DNA of 64,000 bases, taken from NCBI GenBank assembly GCA_048937405.1, contig JBHLNF010000004.1, positions 160,001-224,000 on the forward strand. Direction: 5' to 3'. This document shows, piece after piece, positions 26,615-40,324 of the stretch (positions within the stretch are counted from its first letter, which is position 1; every line of letters starts with the position of its first letter). The notes beneath the pieces were generated by a model, which did no database searches, was not told the origin of the DNA, and worked only from the letters and a program-made list of their open reading frames with translations. The DNA is from Promethearchaeota archaeon. Lineage in GTDB: Archaea; Asgardarchaeota; Lokiarchaeia; Sigyniarchaeales; SOKP01. A program made the translations under genes and the position numbers.

Positions 26615-27382
26615 TTATTTACCCATTCGGCGATCTCTAGCAATAAAGTCCTTAAGATCCTCAACAACCATTTCTTTATTATAGTCCGGCCAAAATTCTT
26701 TTCGGAATTTAAATTCTGCATAAGAAGCATCCCATAACAAGAATCCTGAGATTCTAGCTCCATCATTCATGCCAGTTCTAATAATATAATCTAAAGGAGG
26801 AAAGTCTTTTGAATAGAGGTGTGATTCAATTAAATCTTTATTAACCTGTTCTGGTTTAATTCCATTACTCACAATTTCCTTCACAGCATCAACAATTTCT
26901 TCATGACCATCATACATAACGCAAAGATTAATGAAATTTTGGTCGTTATCTTTAGTAAGCTCCATTAAATCTTGAAATTTCTCCTTAACATCATTTGGTA
27001 ACATTGAAATCTTTCCAATAATATTAAATTTAACTTTTTCCTCTTTAACGATTGATTCATTTATAATGGTATCGATAGCTTTGATCATTAACTTATAAAT
27101 ATACTCAATTTCTACAGGTTTACGTTTCCTAACATTCTCTAATGATAATATATATAAACTCAAATAATGAATTCCCGCATCAAAAAAATCGAATAATCGC
27201 TTTTTAAGGTTTTCGTAGCCAATTAAATGCCCTAAATTGATTTCGAGATTCCTCTTCTTGGCCCATCTTCTGTTAATGTCTAGAAGTGGAAATCTCTTCT
27301 AAGTACCATCAATGATGAGGCCAATATGTTTGGGTAACCTTTCTTTTTCTCTTAATTTAAGTTCTTCTAGAATAGTTTGCAT
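26615..27382 (-). CDS. uppS: cis-prenyltransferase (undecaprenyl/polyprenyl diphosphate synthase) interrupted by a 30-nt candidate intron; 245 aa when spliced
   Basis: ATG at 27382: MQTILEE...LPKHIGLIIDG[insert with TAG]NRRWAKK...GH...LSLENVRKR...DYIIRTG...RISGFLLW. Confidence 0.9.
27274..27303 (-). other. Candidate BHB-type mRNA intron in uppS (30 nt)
   Basis: CTTAGAAGAGATTTCCACTTCTAGACATTA; 7-bp hairpin; removal restores GAT GGT AAC AGA AGA TGG (DGNRRW). Confidence 0.8.
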
Positions 27383-33856: not shown

Positions 33857-33946
33857 TTTTATATTAAGTGGTTCTGTAACTCCTCTAAGAAAAACTACAA
33901 ATGTTATTCAAATGTTTGAGATAAATATTAAAGGAAGATAAATATT

Positions 33947-35248
33947 ATGGGATTTAGAGAATATATCGATAAAATTGATAAGAATGGATTACTCAAAAAG
34001 GTAGATATTGAAGTTTCAAAAAGATTGGAAATAGCTGGGATCTTAAAAGAGATGGAACCAACTCCAATACTATTTAATAATATTAAAGAATCTGAATATC
34101 GTGTTGTTGGCAATGTATTTTGTACTAAAGATGTAATTGCCTCTTATTTTGGTGTGACTCCCGCAGATCTTATACCAATGCTATCGAAAGCTATTAATAA
34201 TTATTTAGAACCAGAAATAATATCTGATGCACCATGTCAGGAAATTATTGAGTCTAATGTGGATTTAGATAAACTTCCTATCTTATTTCATTGTGAGCGG
34301 GATGGCGGAAATTACATTAGTTCTGCTGTAGTAGTTACAAGAGATCCAGATTATGGTCAAAACTTAGATTTTCATAGAGCAATGCAATTTTCAAAAGATA
34401 AATTTGCCACTCGAATAGTGAAGGGACGTCATTTTTCCAAATTTTTAGAAAAAAATGGAGAATTAGATACTGCCTTTTGCATAGGAAACACTCCCAATAT
34501 TTTAATTGCTGGAGCAACTTCCGTAGACATTGGTGTTAATGAATTACATATTGCTAATGCTCTAGAGCCAATCAAAGTAGTAAAAGCAAACTCAGTTGAC
34601 CTATTAATACCTGCTGAATCAGAATTTGTATTAGAGGGACGTGTATATTTGGAAGAGAGACATTCAGAAGGTCCGTTTGTCGATCTTACTGAGACTTATG
34701 ATGTAATACGAGAAGAACCTATTTTTGAAATAAAAAGAATTACTCATAGAAAAGATGCGATTTGGCAGGCGCTCCTCCCAGGTGCTCTTGAACATAAAAT
34801 CTTAATGGGAATGCCTAGAGAACCCACTATTTTTAATAAAGTAAATGAACAGGGGGTTAAATGTTTAGACGTAAACATTAGTCCAGGTGGATCTTCTTGG
34901 CTTCATGCTATAGTACAAATTGATAAGAAATCAGAAGAGGATGGAAAAAAAGCTATAGAAGGCACTTTTACGGGTCATACTAGCTGTAAGCACGCTTTTA
35001 TTGTTGATAAAGACATTAATATATATGATCCCTTATCTGTCGAATGGGCGATGGCAACTCGTTTTCAAGGAGATACAAGAATGATAATTAAAGATAAAGA
35101 ACCTGGGAGTAGTTTAGATCCTAGCGCCGAACCAGGAACAAAAATGACAACGAAAATAGGGTTTGATTTAACCAAACCACTTGTAGTAAAAGGAAAGAGT
35201 TTTGAGATTGCTGAATTTCCAAAAGTAGATATTAAAAAATATTTTTAA
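33947..35248 (+). CDS. UbiD-family decarboxylase; probable anhydromevalonate phosphate decarboxylase
   Basis: EGPFVDLTETYD, VEWAMATRFQ, GSSLDPS; abuts the AcnX genes within the MVA cluster. Confidence 0.88.
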   Translation: MGFREYIDKIDKNGLLKKVDIEVSKRLEIAGILKEMEPTPILFNNIKESEYRVVGNVFCTKDVIASYFGVTPADLIPMLSKAINNYLEPEIISDAPCQEIIESNVDLDKLPILFHCERDGGNYISSAVVVTRDPDYGQNLDFHRAMQFSKDKFATRIVKGRHFSKFLEKNGELDTAFCIGNTPNILIAGATSVDIGVNELHIANALEPIKVVKANSVDLLIPAESEFVLEGRVYLEERHSEGPFVDLTETYDVIREEPIFEIKRITHRKDAIWQALLPGALEHKILMGMPREPTIFNKVNEQGVKCLDVNISPGGSSWLHAIVQIDKKSEEDGKKAIEGTFTGHTSCKHAFIVDKDINIYDPLSVEWAMATRFQGDTRMIIKDKEPGSSLDPSAEPGTKMTTKIGFDLTKPLVVKGKSFEIAEFPKVDIKKYF

Positions 35249-35249
35249 A

Positions 35250-36458
35250 ATGAGGAAAGAAAAAATGAAATTAACTTCAGAAGAACAAAACATATTAGAT
35301 GGTAAATTTGGAAAAGCTGCCAAAAAGTCAATGGAAATATTAGTAACATTAGGAGACATATTCGATGCTGAATCAATGGTTGATGTATTTGGCGTTCAAA
35401 TAGCAGGAGTTTCATATGCAAATCTAGATGAGGCAGGTTTGGAATTTTTAAGTGAAATGGCTGAAGATGGCAAGGTTCGAGTCCTAACTACTTTAAATCC
35501 TGCTGGAATGGATCGAGAGAATTGGCAGGCTTTAGGTATTTCTGAAGAATTTGCTAAAAATCAAAATCGAGCTATTGATGCATTTGCTAAAATGGGTATA
35601 ATTACTACTTGTTCTTGTACACCTTACTTAATTGGTAATACTCCACACTATGGTCAACATCTTGCGTGGGCTGAAAGTAGTGCCGTATGTTATGCTAATT
35701 CAGTAATTGGTGCACGAACCAACCGTGAAGGAGGTCCAAGCGCTTTAGCATCAGCTATTACAGGAAAAACTCCTAGATATGGTTATCATTTAGATGAAAA
35801 TCGTCATGGGGAAGTTTTATTTGAAGTTAATGCTAAAGTTAAAGGAACAGATGAATTTGGTGTTTTAGGAAAAATAATTGGGGATAAATTGGTAGAATTA
35901 GGAAAGAAAATTCCTTATATAGAAGGTATTCCTGAAGCGACAGTTGAGGAACTCAAATCGTTTTGTGCTTCTGTTGCAACATATGGCGGAACTGCTTTAT
36001 TCCATATGGAGGGAGTTACGCCAGAGTATAATGATTATCCTAAACCGACTGATATCACATTTGAAATCAACCAAAACGACCTAGATAAAACACGCTTAGA
36101 ACTTATTGATGATGATCTTGAGATAGATTTTGTAAGTATAGGATGTCCACATGCTTCAATTCACGAAATTGAAAGAATTGCCAGGCTATTAAAAGGAAAG
36201 AAAGTGAAAAAAGAATTTTGGATTACTACTGCCCGTCCTACAAAAAGAATCGCTGATGAAGCTGGTTATTCAAAAATAATTGAAGAAGCAGGAGCGAAAT
36301 TTGCAGCAGATACATGTTGTGTTGTTGCTCCAATTAAGGGTCGGTTTAAAGGAATAATGGTAGATTCAGCGAAAGCTTGTTATTATGGGCGCGCAAAAAA
36401 CCAATTTAAAGTAAAAATAGGATCAATTGAGGAATGTATTGAGGAGGCAATAAAATGA
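35250..36458 (+). CDS. Aconitase X catalytic subunit; probable phosphomevalonate dehydratase large subunit
   Basis: TTLNPAG, CSCTPY, WAESSAV..ANSVIGARTNREGG, IGCPHAS, DTC, SAKACYY. Confidence 0.9.
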   Translation: MRKEKMKLTSEEQNILDGKFGKAAKKSMEILVTLGDIFDAESMVDVFGVQIAGVSYANLDEAGLEFLSEMAEDGKVRVLTTLNPAGMDRENWQALGISEEFAKNQNRAIDAFAKMGIITTCSCTPYLIGNTPHYGQHLAWAESSAVCYANSVIGARTNREGGPSALASAITGKTPRYGYHLDENRHGEVLFEVNAKVKGTDEFGVLGKIIGDKLVELGKKIPYIEGIPEATVEELKSFCASVATYGGTALFHMEGVTPEYNDYPKPTDITFEINQNDLDKTRLELIDDDLEIDFVSIGCPHASIHEIERIARLLKGKKVKKEFWITTARPTKRIADEAGYSKIIEEAGAKFAADTCCVVAPIKGRFKGIMVDSAKACYYGRAKNQFKVKIGSIEECIEEAIK

Positions 36459-36847
36459 AGTTAAAAGGAAGAAAAATCTATAAAGGAACTGTTGAAGCAG
36501 AGGCGATTGTCACCAAAGATGGAATTTCTTTTTATGGAGGGGTAGATCCCGATACAGGAAAAGTAGTGGAAGTTGGACATGAGCTAGAAGGGCAATCAAT
36601 AACAGGAAAAGTTTTGGTTTTTCCAACAGGGAAAGGATCAACAGTAGGATCATATACTATGTATCGGATGAAAAAAAATAATACAGCTCCCGCAGCAATT
36701 ATAAATAAACAAATTGATACAATTATAGCAGTAGGTTGTATTATTAGTGAAATTCCTTGTGTCGATAAAATTAATATAGATGAGATAAAGACTGGTCAAA
36801 AACTAATTGTTAATGGAACAGAAGGAACAATAGAATTAATCGATTAA
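36455..36847 (+). CDS. Aconitase X swivel subunit (DUF126); phosphomevalonate dehydratase small subunit
   Basis: ISFYGGVDP.TG, GKGSTVGSY; ATGA overlap with the large subunit. Confidence 0.92.
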   Translation: MKLKGRKIYKGTVEAEAIVTKDGISFYGGVDPDTGKVVEVGHELEGQSITGKVLVFPTGKGSTVGSYTMYRMKKNNTAPAAIINKQIDTIIAVGCIISEIPCVDKINIDEIKTGQKLIVNGTEGTIELID

Positions 36848-37167
36848 TTTAATATACATTCTAATTAAATCATTAGCAATAAGCCACTCAGATATTACGT
36901 TCTACACATCTTAAGTTTATAGATATTAAATATCCTCAAAATTAAATATAATTTTAGATTCCATTGAAAATACTGAAAACACAAATCTTATAAAACTGTA
37001 AATGATACTTACATAACAATTGAGAGTTTTTTATAATCCCACTCTAAAATGTTTTATTTCTTCTCCTACTTTTTAAATAAAGTAAAATTTGATCAAATTA
37101 AGTTATTTAAATAATTTTGAATATTTTCAAATTTTAATAAATCAAACGACTTTAATTGGTGAAAAAA

Positions 37168-38134
37168 TTGGGTATTGGAAAAGGATATGGAAAGACCATA
37201 CTTTTTGGCGAAATTTAATTCTTAATTCAAGAATAAACGCAATCATTTTGTAGTTTATGGTCTTCCTGCGATAGCATCAGCATTAGGCTCTTATACAACG
37301 GCAGAAGTTAATATAGTTAAAGGTAATGGTTGGACAGTTGATGATCAAAGAATAGCAACACCGGGTTACAAAAAACAGAAATATAGTGAGGCTATAGGGT
37401 CAATTAAAAATGTTATTGAATTTTTAAAAATTGATACTACTAATCAAAAACTTGAAATAACATTTTCAGGCGATCTAATTGCCGCAAGTGGAGTAGGTGC
37501 ATCAGCAGCTCAAAGTACATCACTTTCCCGCGCAATAAATGATGCATTTAATCTTAATTTAAATGATGAGAAGATTAATGAAGCGGCTTATGAAGGAGAG
37601 AAAGCTTATCATGGTACACCATCTGGAATTGACAATACAGCTTCAACTTATGGAGGTTTAATTTGGTTTGTTAAGAATTTAACTGGAGGAAAAAATACTA
37701 TGGAACTATTGCAATCACCAAAGAAGATGCCCTTGGTAATTTTAAATACAGGAATAACAGCCTCTACAACAGAAGTAGTAACTGATGTTAGACGCTTAAA
37801 AGAGGAATCTCCTAAAAAGTATGAAAAAATCTTTAATCAATATGAAAATCTAGCTATAAAAGCGAAAAATGCTTTACTTGAGGGAGATATTGTCAAGATA
37901 GGTGAATTAATGAATCAAAATCATAAAATGTTACAAGACATAACAGTTTCTGGAGAAATTAATGATAAACTTGTCGAAATCGCACTTCAAAATGGAGCAC
38001 TAGGTGCTAAAATGACTGGAACGGGAAGAGGGGGATTAGTAATTGCTTTAGTAGAAACTGAAAATATACAAGAAAAAATTGCGGAAGCTGTTGAAAAAGA
38101 AGGATACAATGCCTGGAAAACCATGATAGGATGA
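37168..38134 (+). CDS. mvk: Mevalonate kinase interrupted by a 31-nt candidate intron; 311 aa when spliced
   Basis: TTG after GGTGA: MGIGKGYGKTILFGE[insert]HFVVYGLPAIA...ASGVGASAA...HGTPSGIDN...GAKMTGTGRGG; frame is open from 37244 to 38134. Confidence 0.9.
37213..37243 (+). other. Candidate BHB-type mRNA intron in mvk (31 nt)
   Basis: ATTTAATTCTTAATTCAAGAATAAACGCAAT; hairpin; removal gives GGC GAA CAT TTT (GEHF) and repairs the frame. Confidence 0.82.
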
Positions 38135-38147
38135 GTATGAGGAAAAA

Positions 38148-40040
38148 TTGAAAAAGAACAATGAAATAATTCTGCTTAAATTAGGTGGAAGTTTACTAAC
38201 TGATAAGAATAAGCCATTTTCACTTAGAGAAGAAATTTTAGAAAAATGTCTCAATCAGATAATTGACAGTAAGAAATCAATAATTTTGATTCATGGTGGC
38301 GGGTCATTTGGTCACCCTCTTGCTAAAAAATATAAAATTTCGCAGGGTTTGAATAAGTCTATTGAAAACCAAATAATAGGGCTTTCAAAAACTCATGATG
38401 CCATGAATCAATTAAATTCCGTTATTATAAAAAAATTTCTTGAAAAGGAATATCCTGCAATTTCAATCCAACCTTCAAGCATTTTTATGCAAGGTTTTAA
38501 TGAAATTAATATTAAATCAATAGAACCTATTGAAAAATTGCTTGATCTTGGAGTAATACCCGTCCTTTATGGAGATATTCTTCTCAGTCAAGATTATTCT
38601 TTTTCAATTTTATCTGGAGATTACATTATTTTGAAATTATGTGAGAATATTCAAAATTTTAATATTTCAAAAGTAATATTTGCGATTGAGGAAGATGGAA
38701 TATTTATTAATGAGAATGGTAATAAAAAATTAGCTTTAAAATTGACACTTAGCGATTTATCTACTATAAAATTAGCGAAATTAGGACAAAAGATTGATGT
38801 AACAGGGGGAATAAGAGGAAAATTAAAACAAATTGAAGAAATCTTAAAATTAAATATACCTGTTCAAATTATTAATGGTATCAAAAATAAAAATATATTG
38901 AAAGCATTAACAAACCAATATATCGAATGTACGAATATTGAAATATCATCAAATAAATTAGCTGAAAGTCAAATATATAATAGAAAAATTGAACATATTA
39001 AGATACCTTTAGAACACAACGTTCAACATGCAATTAATTATTTTGATGATATTACTTTAATTCATCATCCTCTCCCAGAATTTGAATTAGAGGAGACTAA
39101 TATATCTGTAGATTTCTTTAAAAAACAAATATCTGCTCCAATTTGTATTTCAGCAATCACCGGTGGTCATCAGATTTCTAAAGCTATCAACAATATTTTA
39201 GCAAATGCTGCCAAAACAGAAAATATAGTACTGGGAGTCGGTAGTCAGAGAATAGGATTAGAAGATCCTTCCACAATTGAATCATTCAGCGTAATCCGCG
39301 ATGTAGCACCCAATATTCCTGTAATAGGAAATTTAGGGATAGGGCAAGTATGTGATCCCAATTTTGATATTGATAATTTCAATAAATGCATTGATATGAT
39401 TGAAGCGGATGCTATGGCCATACACTTTAATGCTTTACATGAACTTGTTCAAAAAGAAGGCAACATTTCCTTTAAAAATTTTGAAGAAAGATTCAAAGAA
39501 ATCAGAAAAAAAATAAGTATTCCAATTATAGCTAAAGAAGTTGGATCAGGATTTAATAAAGAATTAGCTATAAAGCTTGATTTATTGGGATTTGATGGAT
39601 TTGATGTTGGCGGAGCAGGTGGTACAAGTTTTGCGGCAATTGAGTCGATACGAGATGATTATAGCTTTGAAGTATTTACTAGAAAGATTGCAGATACTTT
39701 TCGTGAATGGGGAATTCCTACTCCTGTAAGTATATCAAATGTAAGAGACGTATCTAAGAAATTAATAATTGCAACGGGAGGGTTACGGTCTGGAGTTGAT
39801 ATCGCCAAATCAATTGTGTTAGGTGCTGATATTGGAGGTTTTGCCTATAAGTTCTTAAAGACGGCATGGCAAGATTATAAAAATAATTCTTTCATTCACA
39901 CAATTAAAGAAATCAAAACTCTAAAACATGAATTAAGATCCTCTATGTGGTTGATGAATGTTAAGAATATTAACAGTCTCAGTTGTAATAGTGATAAAAG
40001 AATCTTGGTTGGTAAATTATATCAGTGGTTAAATCAATGA
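38148..40040 (+). CDS. Isopentenyl phosphate kinase / type 2 isopentenyl-diphosphate isomerase fusion
   Basis: N-terminal LKLGGS, HGGGSFGH, SGD, DVTGGI (IPK); C-terminal RKIEH, SAITGG, GVGSQR, KEVGSG, GAGGTS, WGIPT (IDI-2). Confidence 0.93.
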   Translation: MKKNNEIILLKLGGSLLTDKNKPFSLREEILEKCLNQIIDSKKSIILIHGGGSFGHPLAKKYKISQGLNKSIENQIIGLSKTHDAMNQLNSVIIKKFLEKEYPAISIQPSSIFMQGFNEINIKSIEPIEKLLDLGVIPVLYGDILLSQDYSFSILSGDYIILKLCENIQNFNISKVIFAIEEDGIFINENGNKKLALKLTLSDLSTIKLAKLGQKIDVTGGIRGKLKQIEEILKLNIPVQIINGIKNKNILKALTNQYIECTNIEISSNKLAESQIYNRKIEHIKIPLEHNVQHAINYFDDITLIHHPLPEFELEETNISVDFFKKQISAPICISAITGGHQISKAINNILANAAKTENIVLGVGSQRIGLEDPSTIESFSVIRDVAPNIPVIGNLGIGQVCDPNFDIDNFNKCIDMIEADAMAIHFNALHELVQKEGNISFKNFEERFKEIRKKISIPIIAKEVGSGFNKELAIKLDLLGFDGFDVGGAGGTSFAAIESIRDDYSFEVFTRKIADTFREWGIPTPVSISNVRDVSKKLIIATGGLRSGVDIAKSIVLGADIGGFAYKFLKTAWQDYKNNSFIHTIKEIKTLKHELRSSMWLMNVKNINSLSCNSDKRILVGKLYQWLNQ

Positions 40041-40324
40041 TTATTTAATATAATCTCCTCATTCTTTAATATTTCTCATCATAAATCTTATTTGATAGAT
40101 AACAACCTCGATTATTCTCTTCTCCAAAAATGCATCTATGTTTAATGTCATTCTTTTTTTTTGAATATTTCATATAACCCCCACATTGTCCTTTTGTTAA
40201 ACTAATTTTTTTTTATTGTTCCGTTCCCTGACTTCTTCACATAGCTAGAAGGTTATTTCTACGGGGATTGGCTTTTTTGAGGTCATATTTTAAAGTTAGA
40301 CTTGAACTAATACTAGGATATTTA

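What the first reader, a model, noticed from the sequence alone, without database searches (positions are those of the whole stretch)
37168..38134. Mevalonate kinase is split by a 31-nt tRNA-type (BHB) intron inside the GEH motif
Seen: the ORF track finds only the last 144 aa. The gene actually starts at TTG 37168 (GKTILFGE), meets a 31-nt insert with an immediate TAA and a frameshift, then resumes at HFVVYG and stays open to 38134 with all GHMP motifs intact. The RNA folds as GGCG-AA^A-[UUUAAUUCUU-AAUUC-AAGAAUAAA]-CGCA-AU^C: a central helix of 3 Watson-Crick pairs plus G.A, two 3-nt bulges and a weak exon stem. Established: archaeal splicing endonuclease (EndA) cuts after the second base of each bulge. 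Applying that rule gives exactly GGC GAA CAT TTT = GEHF. The archaeal mRNA intron I know as well established is in crenarchaeal cbf5. Inference: this is a spliced mRNA intron in an Asgard metabolic gene that pipelines would miscall as a pseudogene.
Basis: partly seen in the sequence, partly recalled or inferred. Interest (0 to 1): 0.95.

Follow-up and report, generated by a model that had tools for sequence, protein, structure and literature searches.

The report
tRNA-type mini-intron in Asgard mevalonate kinase
The only mevalonate kinase gene of this Loki-type Asgard archaeon is interrupted inside its active-site motif by a 31-base insert shaped like a tRNA intron. Comparison of 62 related copies indicates it is cut out of the messenger RNA, which the papers I could search report for only one archaeal protein gene (cbf5).

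Summary
Observation confirmed to the base. Exon 1 is 37168-37212 (LGIGKGYGKTILFGE). The insert is 37213-37243 (31 nt, in-frame TAA at 37216). Exon 2 is 37244-38134 (296 aa, TIGR00549 212 bits against a cut-off of 163).

The same insert sits at the same site in 16 genomes and 46 metagenome contigs (62 distinct sequences; 31, 30 or 28 nt). Fifteen close relatives lack it exactly and read GGN-GAR|CAY-TTY, the product the bulge-helix-bulge cutting rule predicts.

- Structure: a 4-bp helix, two 3-nt bulges and an inner hairpin are kept by compensatory changes (9 pairs; 0 of 500 shuffles reach the observed score). Length changes fall only in the hairpin.
- Selection: the gene is under purifying selection (dN/dS 0.12, as in insert-free copies).
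- Need: it is the only mvk in a complete genome and lies in a mevalonate operon.
- Machinery: two EndA paralogues and RtcB are encoded.

No RNA data could be obtained, so splicing is inferred, not seen (confidence 0.85).

Public gene calls do not flag a pseudogene. They give wrong N-termini.

The scan has noted such mini-introns before on other DNA. These include this same mvk intron in another genome and other genes of this genome. I re-read uppS, pfk and rnhB myself.

The parts
33947..35248 (+). UbiD-family decarboxylase gene, first gene of the mevalonate-pathway cluster (context)
   Evidence: Pfam UbiD, UbiD_N and UbiD_C
35250..36847 (+). Aconitase X large subunit (35250-36458) and swivel subunit (36455-36847). 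This is the phosphomevalonate dehydratase type of the archaeal mevalonate pathway (context).
   Evidence: Pfam AcnX 503 bits and AcnX_swivel 124 bits. The pathway role comes from established knowledge.
37158..37162 (+). Shine-Dalgarno-like GGTGA, 5 nt before the TTG start
   Evidence: Read. Relatives with an ATG start carry GGAGGT at the same distance.
37168..37212 (+). Exon 1: 15 codons, LGIGKGYGKTILFGE. It supplies the N-terminal GKxILFGE half of GHMP motif I.
   Evidence: It aligns codon for codon with the uninterrupted N-termini of insert-free orthologues. It is 15 codons in all 16 insert-bearing genomes.
37192..37200 (+). 5' arm of the distal exon-exon stem (AAGACCAUA)
   Evidence: MFE fold, RNAalifold. 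92.5% of cells paired in 62 sequences. 8.4 of 9 pairs form in insert-bearing genes against 5.4 of 9 in insert-free genes.
37207..37210 (+). Central helix, exon strand (GGCG; Gly14 codon plus the first base of Glu15)
   Evidence: Pairs with 37238-37241. C-G changes to U-A in 4 sequences and to U.G in 3, and is never unpaired.
37211..37213 (+). 5' bulge AA|A. The predicted cut lies between 37212 and 37213.
   Evidence: AAA in 54 and AAU in 8 of 62 sequences. No indels occur here.
37213..37243 (+). 31-nt intron, with in-frame TAA at 37216-37218
   Evidence: Present at this site in 62 distinct sequences and precisely absent in 15 orthologues.
37214..37237 (+). Inner hairpin h': arms 37214-37223 and 37229-37237, loop AAUUC 37224-37228, A37218 bulged
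   Evidence: 7 of its 9 pairs show compensatory double changes. All length variation (28, 30, 31 nt) falls here.
37238..37241 (+). Central helix, intron strand (CGCA)
   Evidence: Variants CGCU, CACU, CGUU and CGCC all keep pairing with GGCG or GGUG.
37242..37244 (+). 3' bulge AU|C. The predicted cut lies between 37243 and 37244.
   Evidence: AUC 49, AAC 12, AGC 1 of 62
37244..38134 (+). Exon 2: 296 codons plus stop. HFVVYG... with GHMP motifs II (ASGVGASAAQ) and III (KMTGTGRGG).
   Evidence: P0001. TIGR00549 212 bits against a cut-off of 163, with the match starting at profile position 11. Pfam GHMP_kinases_N and _C.
37256..37264 (+). 3' arm of the distal exon-exon stem (UAUGGUCUU; codons Tyr-Gly-Leu)
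38148..40040 (+). Fused isopentenyl phosphate kinase and type-2 IDI gene, downstream in the same cluster (context)
   Evidence: Pfam AA_kinase plus FMN_dh

Best explanation
The 31 bases at 37213-37243 are an archaeal bulge-helix-bulge (BHB) intron in the mevalonate kinase pre-mRNA.

How the transcript folds:
- The last bases of exon 1 (GGCG) pair with CGCA near the 3' end of the insert, giving a 4-bp helix.
- This helix is flanked on opposite strands by two 3-nt bulges (AA|A and AU|C).
- A 9-bp hairpin inside the insert braces the helix on one side.
- A 9-bp exon-exon stem braces it farther out.

How it is processed (inferred): the splicing endonuclease, here two EndA paralogues and so probably an (alpha-beta)2 enzyme, cuts after the second base of each bulge. 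RtcB then joins GAA to CAT. That restores ...GKTILFGE|HFVVYG... and a 311-aa enzyme.

Unspliced RNA can yield only a 16-residue peptide.

Shown here: the anatomy, its conservation and covariation, the exact empty sites, purifying selection, sole-copy status and the presence of the enzymes.

Inferred: that cutting and ligation happen, and that EndA and RtcB do it.
For: 1. Exact boundaries. Insert-free orthologues read GGN GAR|CAY TTY without a gap. Shifting the 31-nt deletion by one base either way gives GEN or GDH instead of GEH. The BHB rule has no free parameter once the helix is set.

2. Recurrence. The insert is present in 16 independently assembled genomes and 46 JGI metagenome contigs, giving 62 distinct sequences and 54 distinct inserts.

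3. Covariation.
- 88.6% of cells are paired, against 35-45% when partners are slid.
- 9 pairs and 32 cells show double changes; 0 of 500 shuffles reach the covariation score.
- Central-helix pair 24-54 is CG 55, UA 4, UG 3 and never broken.
- RNAalifold finds the same fold unaided.

4. Geometry. Insert length varies (31, 30, 28 nt), but indels lie only in the hairpin. The 4-bp helix and both 3-nt bulges never change length.

5. All 62 inserts carry an in-frame stop, and all splice to GKTILFGEHFVVYG.

6. Selection. dN/dS of exon 2 among insert-bearing genes has median 0.118 and maximum 0.216 at dS about 1.3. Among insert-free genes it is 0.102. Exon 1 keeps 15 codons and G-x-G-K-G-Y/F-G-K-T-I-L-F-G-E, with synonymous variation in codons 2-8.

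7. Synonymous sites of the flanking exons are constrained only when the insert is present.
- Ile ATA: 15 of 16 against 0 of 15.
- Gly GGY: 16 of 16 against 4 of 15.
- Glu GAA: 16 of 16 against 7 of 15.

8. It is the only mvk in a genome scored 100% complete. The other GHMP genes are a sugar kinase, pantoate kinase and beta-RFA-P synthase. The gene lies in a mevalonate operon.

9. Machinery. Two EndA-domain genes of about 200 aa and one RtcB are present. Asgard EndA is reported as (alpha-beta)2 with the L1 loop that allows relaxed motifs (PMC5829648).

10. I read three more genes of this genome as broken the same way: uppS DG|NRRW, pfk GGG|DCPGLN and rnhB DEAGR|GSVLGP.
Against: No RNA evidence exists for this gene.

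The helix next to the 3' bulge (h) is only 1 bp. The motif is therefore the relaxed HBh' form, not the canonical hBHBh' form.

The outermost pair of the central helix is G.A in 38 of 62 sequences.

The single-sequence MFE fold of the window's own RNA prefers a slightly different pairing of GGCGAAAUU (z = -1.65).

Related sequences are not independent, so shuffle counts and Fisher tests overstate significance.

TTT, GGY, GAA and TAT were fixed by my search pattern in the 46 metagenome rows. For those codons only the 16 genome rows count.
Confidence: 0.85

Rival explanations
1. There is no splicing. The protein starts downstream or in another frame, as public gene calls have it, and works without the GKTILFGE segment. 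Examples are an ATG inside TAT-GGA read through the insert in the exon-2 frame, or a start within exon 2.
For: Database entries named mevalonate kinase have 293-325 aa with N-termini such as MERPYFLVKFFSYFRNKHY-HFVVYG, MKRN-HFVVYG or M-YGLPA. In several congeners the exon-2 frame stays open 20-27 codons upstream (open frames of 316-323 aa).
Against: In the window that frame is closed by TAA 37223-37225, six codons before HF, and the first in-frame start is ATG 37700.

The frame is also closed in G006, G009, G013 and G022 (open frames of 296-302 aa).

The read-through peptide changes freely with the hairpin's compensatory changes.

Exon 1 is conserved as protein, in frame with the 5' cut, in all 16 genomes.

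The TIGR00549 match lacks its first 10 positions without exon 1.

From established knowledge, the Lys, Glu and His of this motif line the MVK active site.
Confidence: 0.04
2. This is translational bypassing (hopping), as in phage T4 gene 60. The ribosome takes off at the end of exon 1 and lands before CAT, skipping the insert.
For: There is a stop codon soon after the take-off region and a stable hairpin within the gap, as in gene 60.
Against: No matched take-off and landing codons exist. GAA or AUU is followed, before CAT, by AAU, UAU, AAA, UAA or UAG in different species.

The position of the first stop varies from codon 2 to codon 9.

Covariation links exon bases GGCG to the 3' end of the insert with fixed 3-nt bulges. 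Bypassing does not require this.

The same architecture recurs in unrelated genes with other sequences.
Confidence: 0.03
3. The insert is removed from the RNA, but by something other than EndA and RtcB, for example another endonuclease-ligase pair.
For: The motif is relaxed: G.A in the helix and almost no adjacent exon helix. No enzyme assay was possible.
Against: The invariant spacing (4 bp between two 3-nt bulges) and the cut positions are those of the EndA ruler. The genome encodes the enzymes. Hetero-oligomeric EndA cleaves exactly such relaxed motifs in cbf5 pre-mRNA (PMC2738675).
Confidence: 0.05
4. The gene is a decaying pseudogene, or the insert is an assembly artefact.
For: The frame is broken, and the mechanical ORF list finds only 144 aa.
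Against: dN/dS is 0.12 over dS of about 1.3, and 296 codons stay open in all copies. The insert is seen in 62 distinct sequences from many assemblies. It is the sole mvk of a complete genome.
Confidence: 0.01

Closest known systems
BHB intron in cbf5 (pseudouridine synthase) pre-mRNA of Crenarchaeota (Watanabe 2002; Yoshinari 2006; Yokobori 2009, PMC2738675)
   Same: A short ORF-less insert (16-44 bp in cbf5) lies in a protein-coding gene. The BHB is unconventional (relaxed). Cuts fall between the 2nd and 3rd bulge residues. The host has hetero-oligomeric EndA. Presence and absence are lineage-specific at one fixed site.
   Different: The phylum differs (Asgard/Promethearchaeota, not Thermoproteota). 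The gene differs (a lipid-pathway kinase). The insert sits 45 nt from the start codon, inside a catalytic motif. There is an additional distal 9-bp exon-exon stem. It is one of several such genes in the same genome. Unlike cbf5, no cDNA has been seen here.
Archaeal tRNA introns at canonical and non-canonical positions (hBHBh' and relaxed HBh' motifs)
   Same: Same motif geometry, same cutting rule and same size range. Same enzymes: EndA (alpha-beta)2 with the L1 loop in Asgard and TACK (PMC5829648), and RtcB.
   Different: The substrate is an mRNA without a tRNA body. The exon halves of the motif are codons, so the structure is maintained through synonymous-site choice.
Unconventional splicing of HAC1/XBP1 mRNA (IRE1 endonuclease plus tRNA ligase/RtcB) in eukaryotes
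   Same: A small non-spliceosomal intron (26 nt in XBP1) is removed by an endonuclease and an RNA ligase, and removal changes the reading frame of a protein-coding message. This comparison rests on my own knowledge, not on a tool result.
   Different: IRE1 recognises paired stem-loops, not a BHB. That splicing is a stress-regulated switch. No regulation is shown here.
Translational bypass in phage T4 gene 60
   Same: A short untranslated gap with a stop and a hairpin lies inside an essential gene.
   Different: There are no matched take-off and landing codons. Covariation is of BHB type. Tested and not met.

Membership tests
Archaeal BHB (splicing-endonuclease) intron | Two 3-nt bulges on opposite strands, separated by a 4-bp helix | tested here: met
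   GGCG/CGCA with bulges AAA and AUC. No indel occurs in these columns in 62 sequences. The helix is 84.7% paired, and the three inner pairs are never broken. The outer pair is G.A in 38, G.U in 23 and G-C in 1.
Archaeal BHB (splicing-endonuclease) intron | Cutting after the 2nd base of each bulge yields the functional joined sequence | tested here: met
   The cuts give GAA|CAT = GEHF, identical to 15 uninterrupted orthologues. Shifts of one base either way do not.
Archaeal BHB (splicing-endonuclease) intron | Flanking helices h (exon-exon) and h' (intron) next to the bulges | tested here: inconclusive
   h' is a 9-bp hairpin with 7 covarying pairs. The adjacent h is only U37206-A37245. A 9-bp exon-exon stem lies 6 and 11 nt farther out. 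This fits the relaxed HBh' class.
Archaeal BHB (splicing-endonuclease) intron | Host encodes a splicing endonuclease able to take relaxed motifs, and the RtcB ligase | tested here: met
   Two EndA-domain ORFs: 197 aa (TIGR00324, 114 bits) and 200 aa (95 bits). RtcB scores 565 bits. The (alpha-beta)2 architecture and L1 loop are taken from PMC5829648 and were not verified in these two sequences.
Archaeal BHB (splicing-endonuclease) intron | Spliced RNA and/or excised (circular) intron observed | not testable with these tools
   No RNA run was listed. The spliced-junction pattern was absent from JGI contigs. The 311-aa database proteins I traced are insert-free genomic DNA.
Mevalonate kinase (TIGR00549, GHMP superfamily) | Score above the curated equivalog cut-off, with GHMP motifs I-III | tested here: met
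   Exon 2 alone scores 212 bits against 163. Motifs II and III are in P0001. Motif I is completed by exon 1, as in uninterrupted orthologues.
Pseudogene | Relaxed selection (dN/dS near 1, further frame breaks) | tested here: not met
   dN/dS 0.118. No further stop occurs in any of 16 genomes.
Programmed translational bypass (gene 60 type) | Matching take-off and landing codons that flank the gap | tested here: not met
   The triplet before CAT varies (AAU, UAU, AAA, UAA, UAG) and matches neither GAA nor AUU.

The most novel reading that the evidence does not exclude
The mvk intron may be one element of a genome-wide layer of EndA-spliced mini-introns of about 30 nt in this Asgard lineage. They sit preferentially on G-rich (glycine-codon) tetramers of catalytic motifs near the 5' ends of housekeeping genes (mvk, uppS, pfk, rnhB and others). 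They are not neutral passengers: they would make synthesis of essential enzymes depend on, and possibly be tuned by, the tRNA-splicing machinery. They would spread or be erased between strains by allelic recombination that co-converts the flanking exon codons.
Probability: 0.2. Interest if true: 0.92.

Novelty: new member of a known kind. Interest (0 to 1): 0.8.

Why it matters
In the papers I could search, endonuclease-type splicing inside an archaeal coding sequence is documented only for cbf5 of Crenarchaeota.

Here an essential lipid-pathway enzyme of an Asgard archaeon can apparently be made only after its mRNA is cut and re-joined. Asgard archaea are the closest known archaeal relatives of eukaryotes. 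At least three other housekeeping genes of the same genome are built the same way.

This bears on three questions:
- How a cell with coupled transcription and translation handles split genes.
- Whether protein-coding introns of a non-spliceosomal kind were common in the archaeal ancestors of eukaryotes.
- Annotation: public records give these proteins false N-termini that lack the active-site motif.

The many natural variants (62 sequences, three lengths, exact empty sites) provide a ready-made mutational series for testing EndA substrate rules on mRNA.

Tried and rejected
1. RNA evidence. No RNA holder was listed for window 33900-40100.

2. Spliced junction pattern. A pattern with insert-type exon codons found 0 JGI contigs.

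3. Search for spliced cDNA among 311-aa database proteins.
- The nearest ones are 95% identical to insert-bearing copies.
- P0007, P0008, P0040, P0072 and P0107 all lie on contigs that carry the upstream AcnX gene.
- Their flanking codons are of the insert-free type.
- They are therefore insert-free genomic alleles, not transcripts.

4. Genome-wide ab initio scan for BHB plus frame restoration.
- The background from AT-rich chance stems and gene boundaries was flat across lengths 12-100.
- No peak appeared at 29-31 nt.
- The filters missed mvk itself.
- The pfk and rnhB hairpins carry internal loops or mismatches, which the filter requiring at least 5 contiguous pairs would reject.
- The scan gives no count of introns and is not used as evidence.

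5. One scan candidate, a 29-nt insert in an AIR-synthase-related gene (C7 about 314150-314185, minus strand), stayed inconclusive. Exon 2 matches AIRS from profile position 43, but exon 1 gave no hit.

6. Rfam found no family anywhere in the window.

7. Pseudogene, artefact, bypass and alternative-start readings were rejected, as set out under the rival explanations.

Full report
**What is in the sequence**

From TTG 37168, preceded by GGTGA at 37158-62, the + strand reads LGIGKGYGKTILFGE and then ATT TAA. From CAT 37244, one frame over, 296 codons run open to 38134 (P0001). The gap is exactly 31 nt (37213-37243).

Exon 2 alone passes the mevalonate kinase equivalog model: TIGR00549, 212 bits against a cut-off of 163. 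The match begins at profile position 11, so the N-terminal motif is missing without exon 1. The mechanical ORF list sees only the last 144 aa.

The gene sits in a mevalonate cluster:
- UbiD-type decarboxylase
- aconitase-X large and small subunits
- mvk
- a fused isopentenyl-phosphate kinase and type-2 IDI

**Whose genome it is**

The window is C17:160001-224000 of a 4.47-Mb, 29-contig assembly with 29% G+C, scored 100% complete.

Relatives carry the labels Promethearchaeota, Promethearchaeia or Lokiarchaeota, and some carry older Bathyarchaeota labels. Promethearchaeia is a class of the Asgard phylum. The genome encodes five actin-family genes, the best scoring 441 bits over the full profile.

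The genome has two EndA-domain genes of about 200 aa and one RtcB. A published survey reports (alpha-beta)2 EndA with the broad-specificity L1 loop in Asgard archaea (PMC5829648).

**Comparative test of the boundaries**

A search of 40 relatives with exon 2, plus one scan of genome contigs, found 31 orthologues of 68-86% identity.
- Sixteen carry an insert of 31 nt (30 nt in one) at precisely this site.
- Fifteen have none and read ...GGN GAR|CAY TTY GTN... without a gap.

The empty site is, to the base, what the rule 'cut after the second base of each 3-nt bulge' predicts. Moving the deletion by one base gives GEN or GDH instead of GEH.

A pattern scan of JGI metagenomes added 58 contigs. Together these make 62 distinct sequences and 54 distinct inserts, of 31 nt (54 sequences), 30 nt (5) and 28 nt (3). 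All 62 have a stop inside the insert in the exon-1 frame. All give GKTILFGEHFVVYG when spliced.

**Structure**

RNAalifold on 13 sequences predicts three elements without guidance:
- a distal exon-exon stem
- the central helix
- the inner hairpin

On the 62-sequence alignment, the structure I wrote from the window's own sequence shows the following:
- 88.6% of cells are paired, against 35-45% when partners are slid by 1-3 columns.
- Nine pairs and 32 cells have changes on both sides.
- No shuffle out of 500 reaches the observed covariation score.

In the central helix:
- G25-C53 is invariant.
- G23-C55 is GC 60, GU 2.
- C24-G54 is CG 55, UA 4, UG 3 and is never broken.
- The outer G22-N56 is G.A 38, G.U 23, G-C 1.

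Seven of the nine hairpin pairs covary. Indels occur only within the hairpin. The helix and both bulges keep their lengths. This is what a ruler-type enzyme measuring the distance between two bulges would demand.

The helix expected next to the 3' bulge is only one U-A pair, so the motif belongs to the relaxed HBh' class. Farther out, AAGACCAUA (37192-37200) pairs perfectly with UAUGGUCUU (37256-37264).

**Codon choice in the exons**

The exon halves of the motif are codons, and their synonymous sites behave differently with and without the insert. The comparison uses 16 against 15 genomes, all found by protein homology:

| Codon | Insert-bearing | Insert-free |
|---|---|---|
| Ile11 = ATA | 15/16 | 0/15 |
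| Thr10 = ACY | 16/16 | 6/15 |
| Gly14 = GGY | 16/16 | 4/15 |
| Glu15 = GAA | 16/16 | 7/15 |
| Gly6 of exon 2 = GGT | 12/16 | 1/15 |
| Outer-stem pairs formed (of 9) | 8.4 | 5.4 |

These rows are related, and base composition differs between clades, so the P values are only indicative. The contrast does hold within sister pairs: L016 against L018, and L017 and L020 against L012.

**The gene is alive and needed**

Exon 2 of insert-bearing genes has dN/dS 0.118 (maximum 0.216) at dS about 1.3. Insert-free genes give 0.102. Exon 1 is always 15 codons and keeps G-x-G-K-G-Y/F-G-K-T-I-L-F-G-E. It shows synonymous variation in codons 2-8, and the same variable third residue as in insert-free genes.

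The other GHMP-fold genes of the genome are a heptose-phosphate-kinase-like protein, pantoate kinase and beta-RFA-P synthase. None reaches the mvk cut-off.

**Distribution**

On a maximum-likelihood tree of exon-2 proteins, presence is patchy. Well-supported branches force at least three changes.

A very close pair is informative. L075 (insert) and L119 (none) are 95.6% identical over exon 2. Nine of the 48 bases around the junction differ, against 3.7% elsewhere (binomial P = 6e-5). All nine are synonymous (exon 1 is identical in protein; the first eight codons of exon 2 translate alike). Among them, ACT>ACA, GGC>GGA, GGT>GGA and CTT>TTA fall in the exon strand of the central helix or in the distal stem.

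Two readings fit. The insert may be exchanged between alleles together with its flanks (co-conversion), or the leftover structure may be selected against after loss.

In L098 against L121, the divergence starts at the site and covers the whole upstream module: the spacer, the TTG start and exon 1.

**Rivals**

- Public gene calls give 293-325-aa 'mevalonate kinases' whose N-termini come from reading the insert in the exon-2 frame or from starting inside exon 2. That frame is closed in the window (TAA 37223) and in four other congeners (G006, G009, G013, G022). The extra peptide is not conserved, and the active-site motif would be lost.
- Bypassing lacks matched take-off and landing codons.
- Pseudogene and artefact readings are excluded.
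- Excision by an enzyme other than EndA cannot be excluded without an assay.

**Other genes of the same genome**

Earlier notes of this scan served as leads. I read three more cases myself.
- uppS, in this window on the minus strand: a 30-nt insert at 27275-27304 splits IIDG|NRRW. The Pfam Prenyltransf match of exon 2 starts at profile position 5.
- pfk: a 31-nt insert at C25:149016-149046 splits GGG|DCPGLN, and the profile match starts at position 11.
- rnhB: a 29-nt insert at C25:104583-104611 splits DEAGR|GSVLGP, and the profile match starts at position 8.

Their sequences differ from the mvk insert, but the architecture is the same: a 4-bp helix between two 3-nt bulges. The exon strand of the helix is a G-rich tetramer drawn mostly from glycine codons (GGCG, AUGG, GCGG, UGGC). 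All four inserts lie within the first 30 codons or so.

My inference is that, in a 29% G+C genome, invariant glycine codons are among the few places that offer a stable helix.

**What is missing**

No RNA run was listed. The spliced junction was not found in JGI contigs. The full-length database proteins I traced are insert-free genomic alleles. Splicing is therefore inferred.

The scan's notes report RNA-level support for other Asgard genes and the same mvk intron in another genome. I did not test those claims and do not count them as evidence.

**Literature**

Six full-text searches found no report of BHB introns in Asgard protein-coding genes. The precedent is cbf5 in Crenarchaeota (PMC2738675):
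- 16-44 bp
- unconventional BHB
- cuts between the second and third bulge residues
- hetero-oligomeric EndA
- lineage-specific loss

**Verdict**

This is a real, conserved, structure-constrained 31-nt BHB-type intron in the sole mvk gene. It is a new member of the cbf5 kind, in a new phylum and a new pathway. Confidence that it is spliced from the mRNA by the tRNA-splicing machinery is 0.85.

Noticed in passing
window 27275-27304 (minus strand); uppS exons 27305-27382 and 26615-27274: A second mini-intron in this window. A 30-nt insert splits the UppS motif IIDG|NRRW. It has helix AUGG/ACAU, bulges UA|C and UA|A, and a 7-bp hairpin. The Pfam Prenyltransf match of exon 2 starts at profile position 5. 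uppS, like mvk, is an isoprenoid-pathway gene.
   Followed up: partly
L117:1468-1498 (G000 C25:149016-149046) and L118:1474-1502 (C25:104583-104611): pfk carries a 31-nt insert and rnhB a 29-nt insert. Each is a BHB-shaped insert that splits an N-terminal catalytic motif (GGG|DCPGLN; DEAGR|GSVLGP). The profile matches start at positions 11 and 8.
   Followed up: partly
whole genome G000: ARAGORN finds only 21 tRNA genes, 15 of them with introns, in a genome scored 100% complete. Many tRNA genes are probably hidden by non-canonical or multiple introns.
   Followed up: no
window 36848-37167: A 320-nt AT-rich spacer lies before a TTG start. It is shared by about ten insert-bearing relatives. Other relatives, with or without the insert, have an ATG start that abuts the stop of the AcnX small subunit. 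In L098 against L121 (95% identical in exon 2), the whole module of spacer plus exon 1 differs, as if exchanged by recombination with a breakpoint at the intron site.
   Followed up: partly
L075 against L119, 24 nt on each side of the junction: In this pair of near-identical alleles, one with the insert and one without, 9 of 48 flanking bases differ against 3.7% elsewhere (P = 6e-5). All nine are synonymous, and several of them (ACT>ACA, GGC>GGA, GGT>GGA, CTT>TTA) fall in the exon strand of the central helix or in the distal stem. This points to co-conversion or to selection against the orphaned structure.
   Followed up: partly
window 38148-40040: Isopentenyl phosphate kinase and type-2 IDI are fused into one 630-aa ORF here, and a 637-aa product is called in L119. 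In L116 they are separate genes of 276 and 372 aa.
   Followed up: no
P0002, P0004, P0006, P0009, P0010, P0012 (public gene calls): Public annotations of insert-bearing mvk genes are named mevalonate kinase but carry spurious N-termini translated from the insert or from a +1-frame ATG in exon 1. They lack GKTILFGE.
   Followed up: yes
L004:690-727 region (G000 C7 about 314150-314185, minus strand): A candidate 29-nt BHB insert (helix ACGU/GCGU, bulges AA|G and AU|C, 9-bp hairpin) joins ...FLCGFHV|TRAALRDLYVKGAKP... in an AIR-synthase-related gene. Exon 2 matches the AIRS profile from position 43. Exon 1 gave no hit.
   Followed up: partly
G007, G011, G017, G018, G020, G021 (same genus): Some congeners lack this mvk type. 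Their best hits are only 33-34% identical (HAVVYG type, as in the neighbouring family) or partial. This suggests replacement of mvk within the genus.
   Followed up: no
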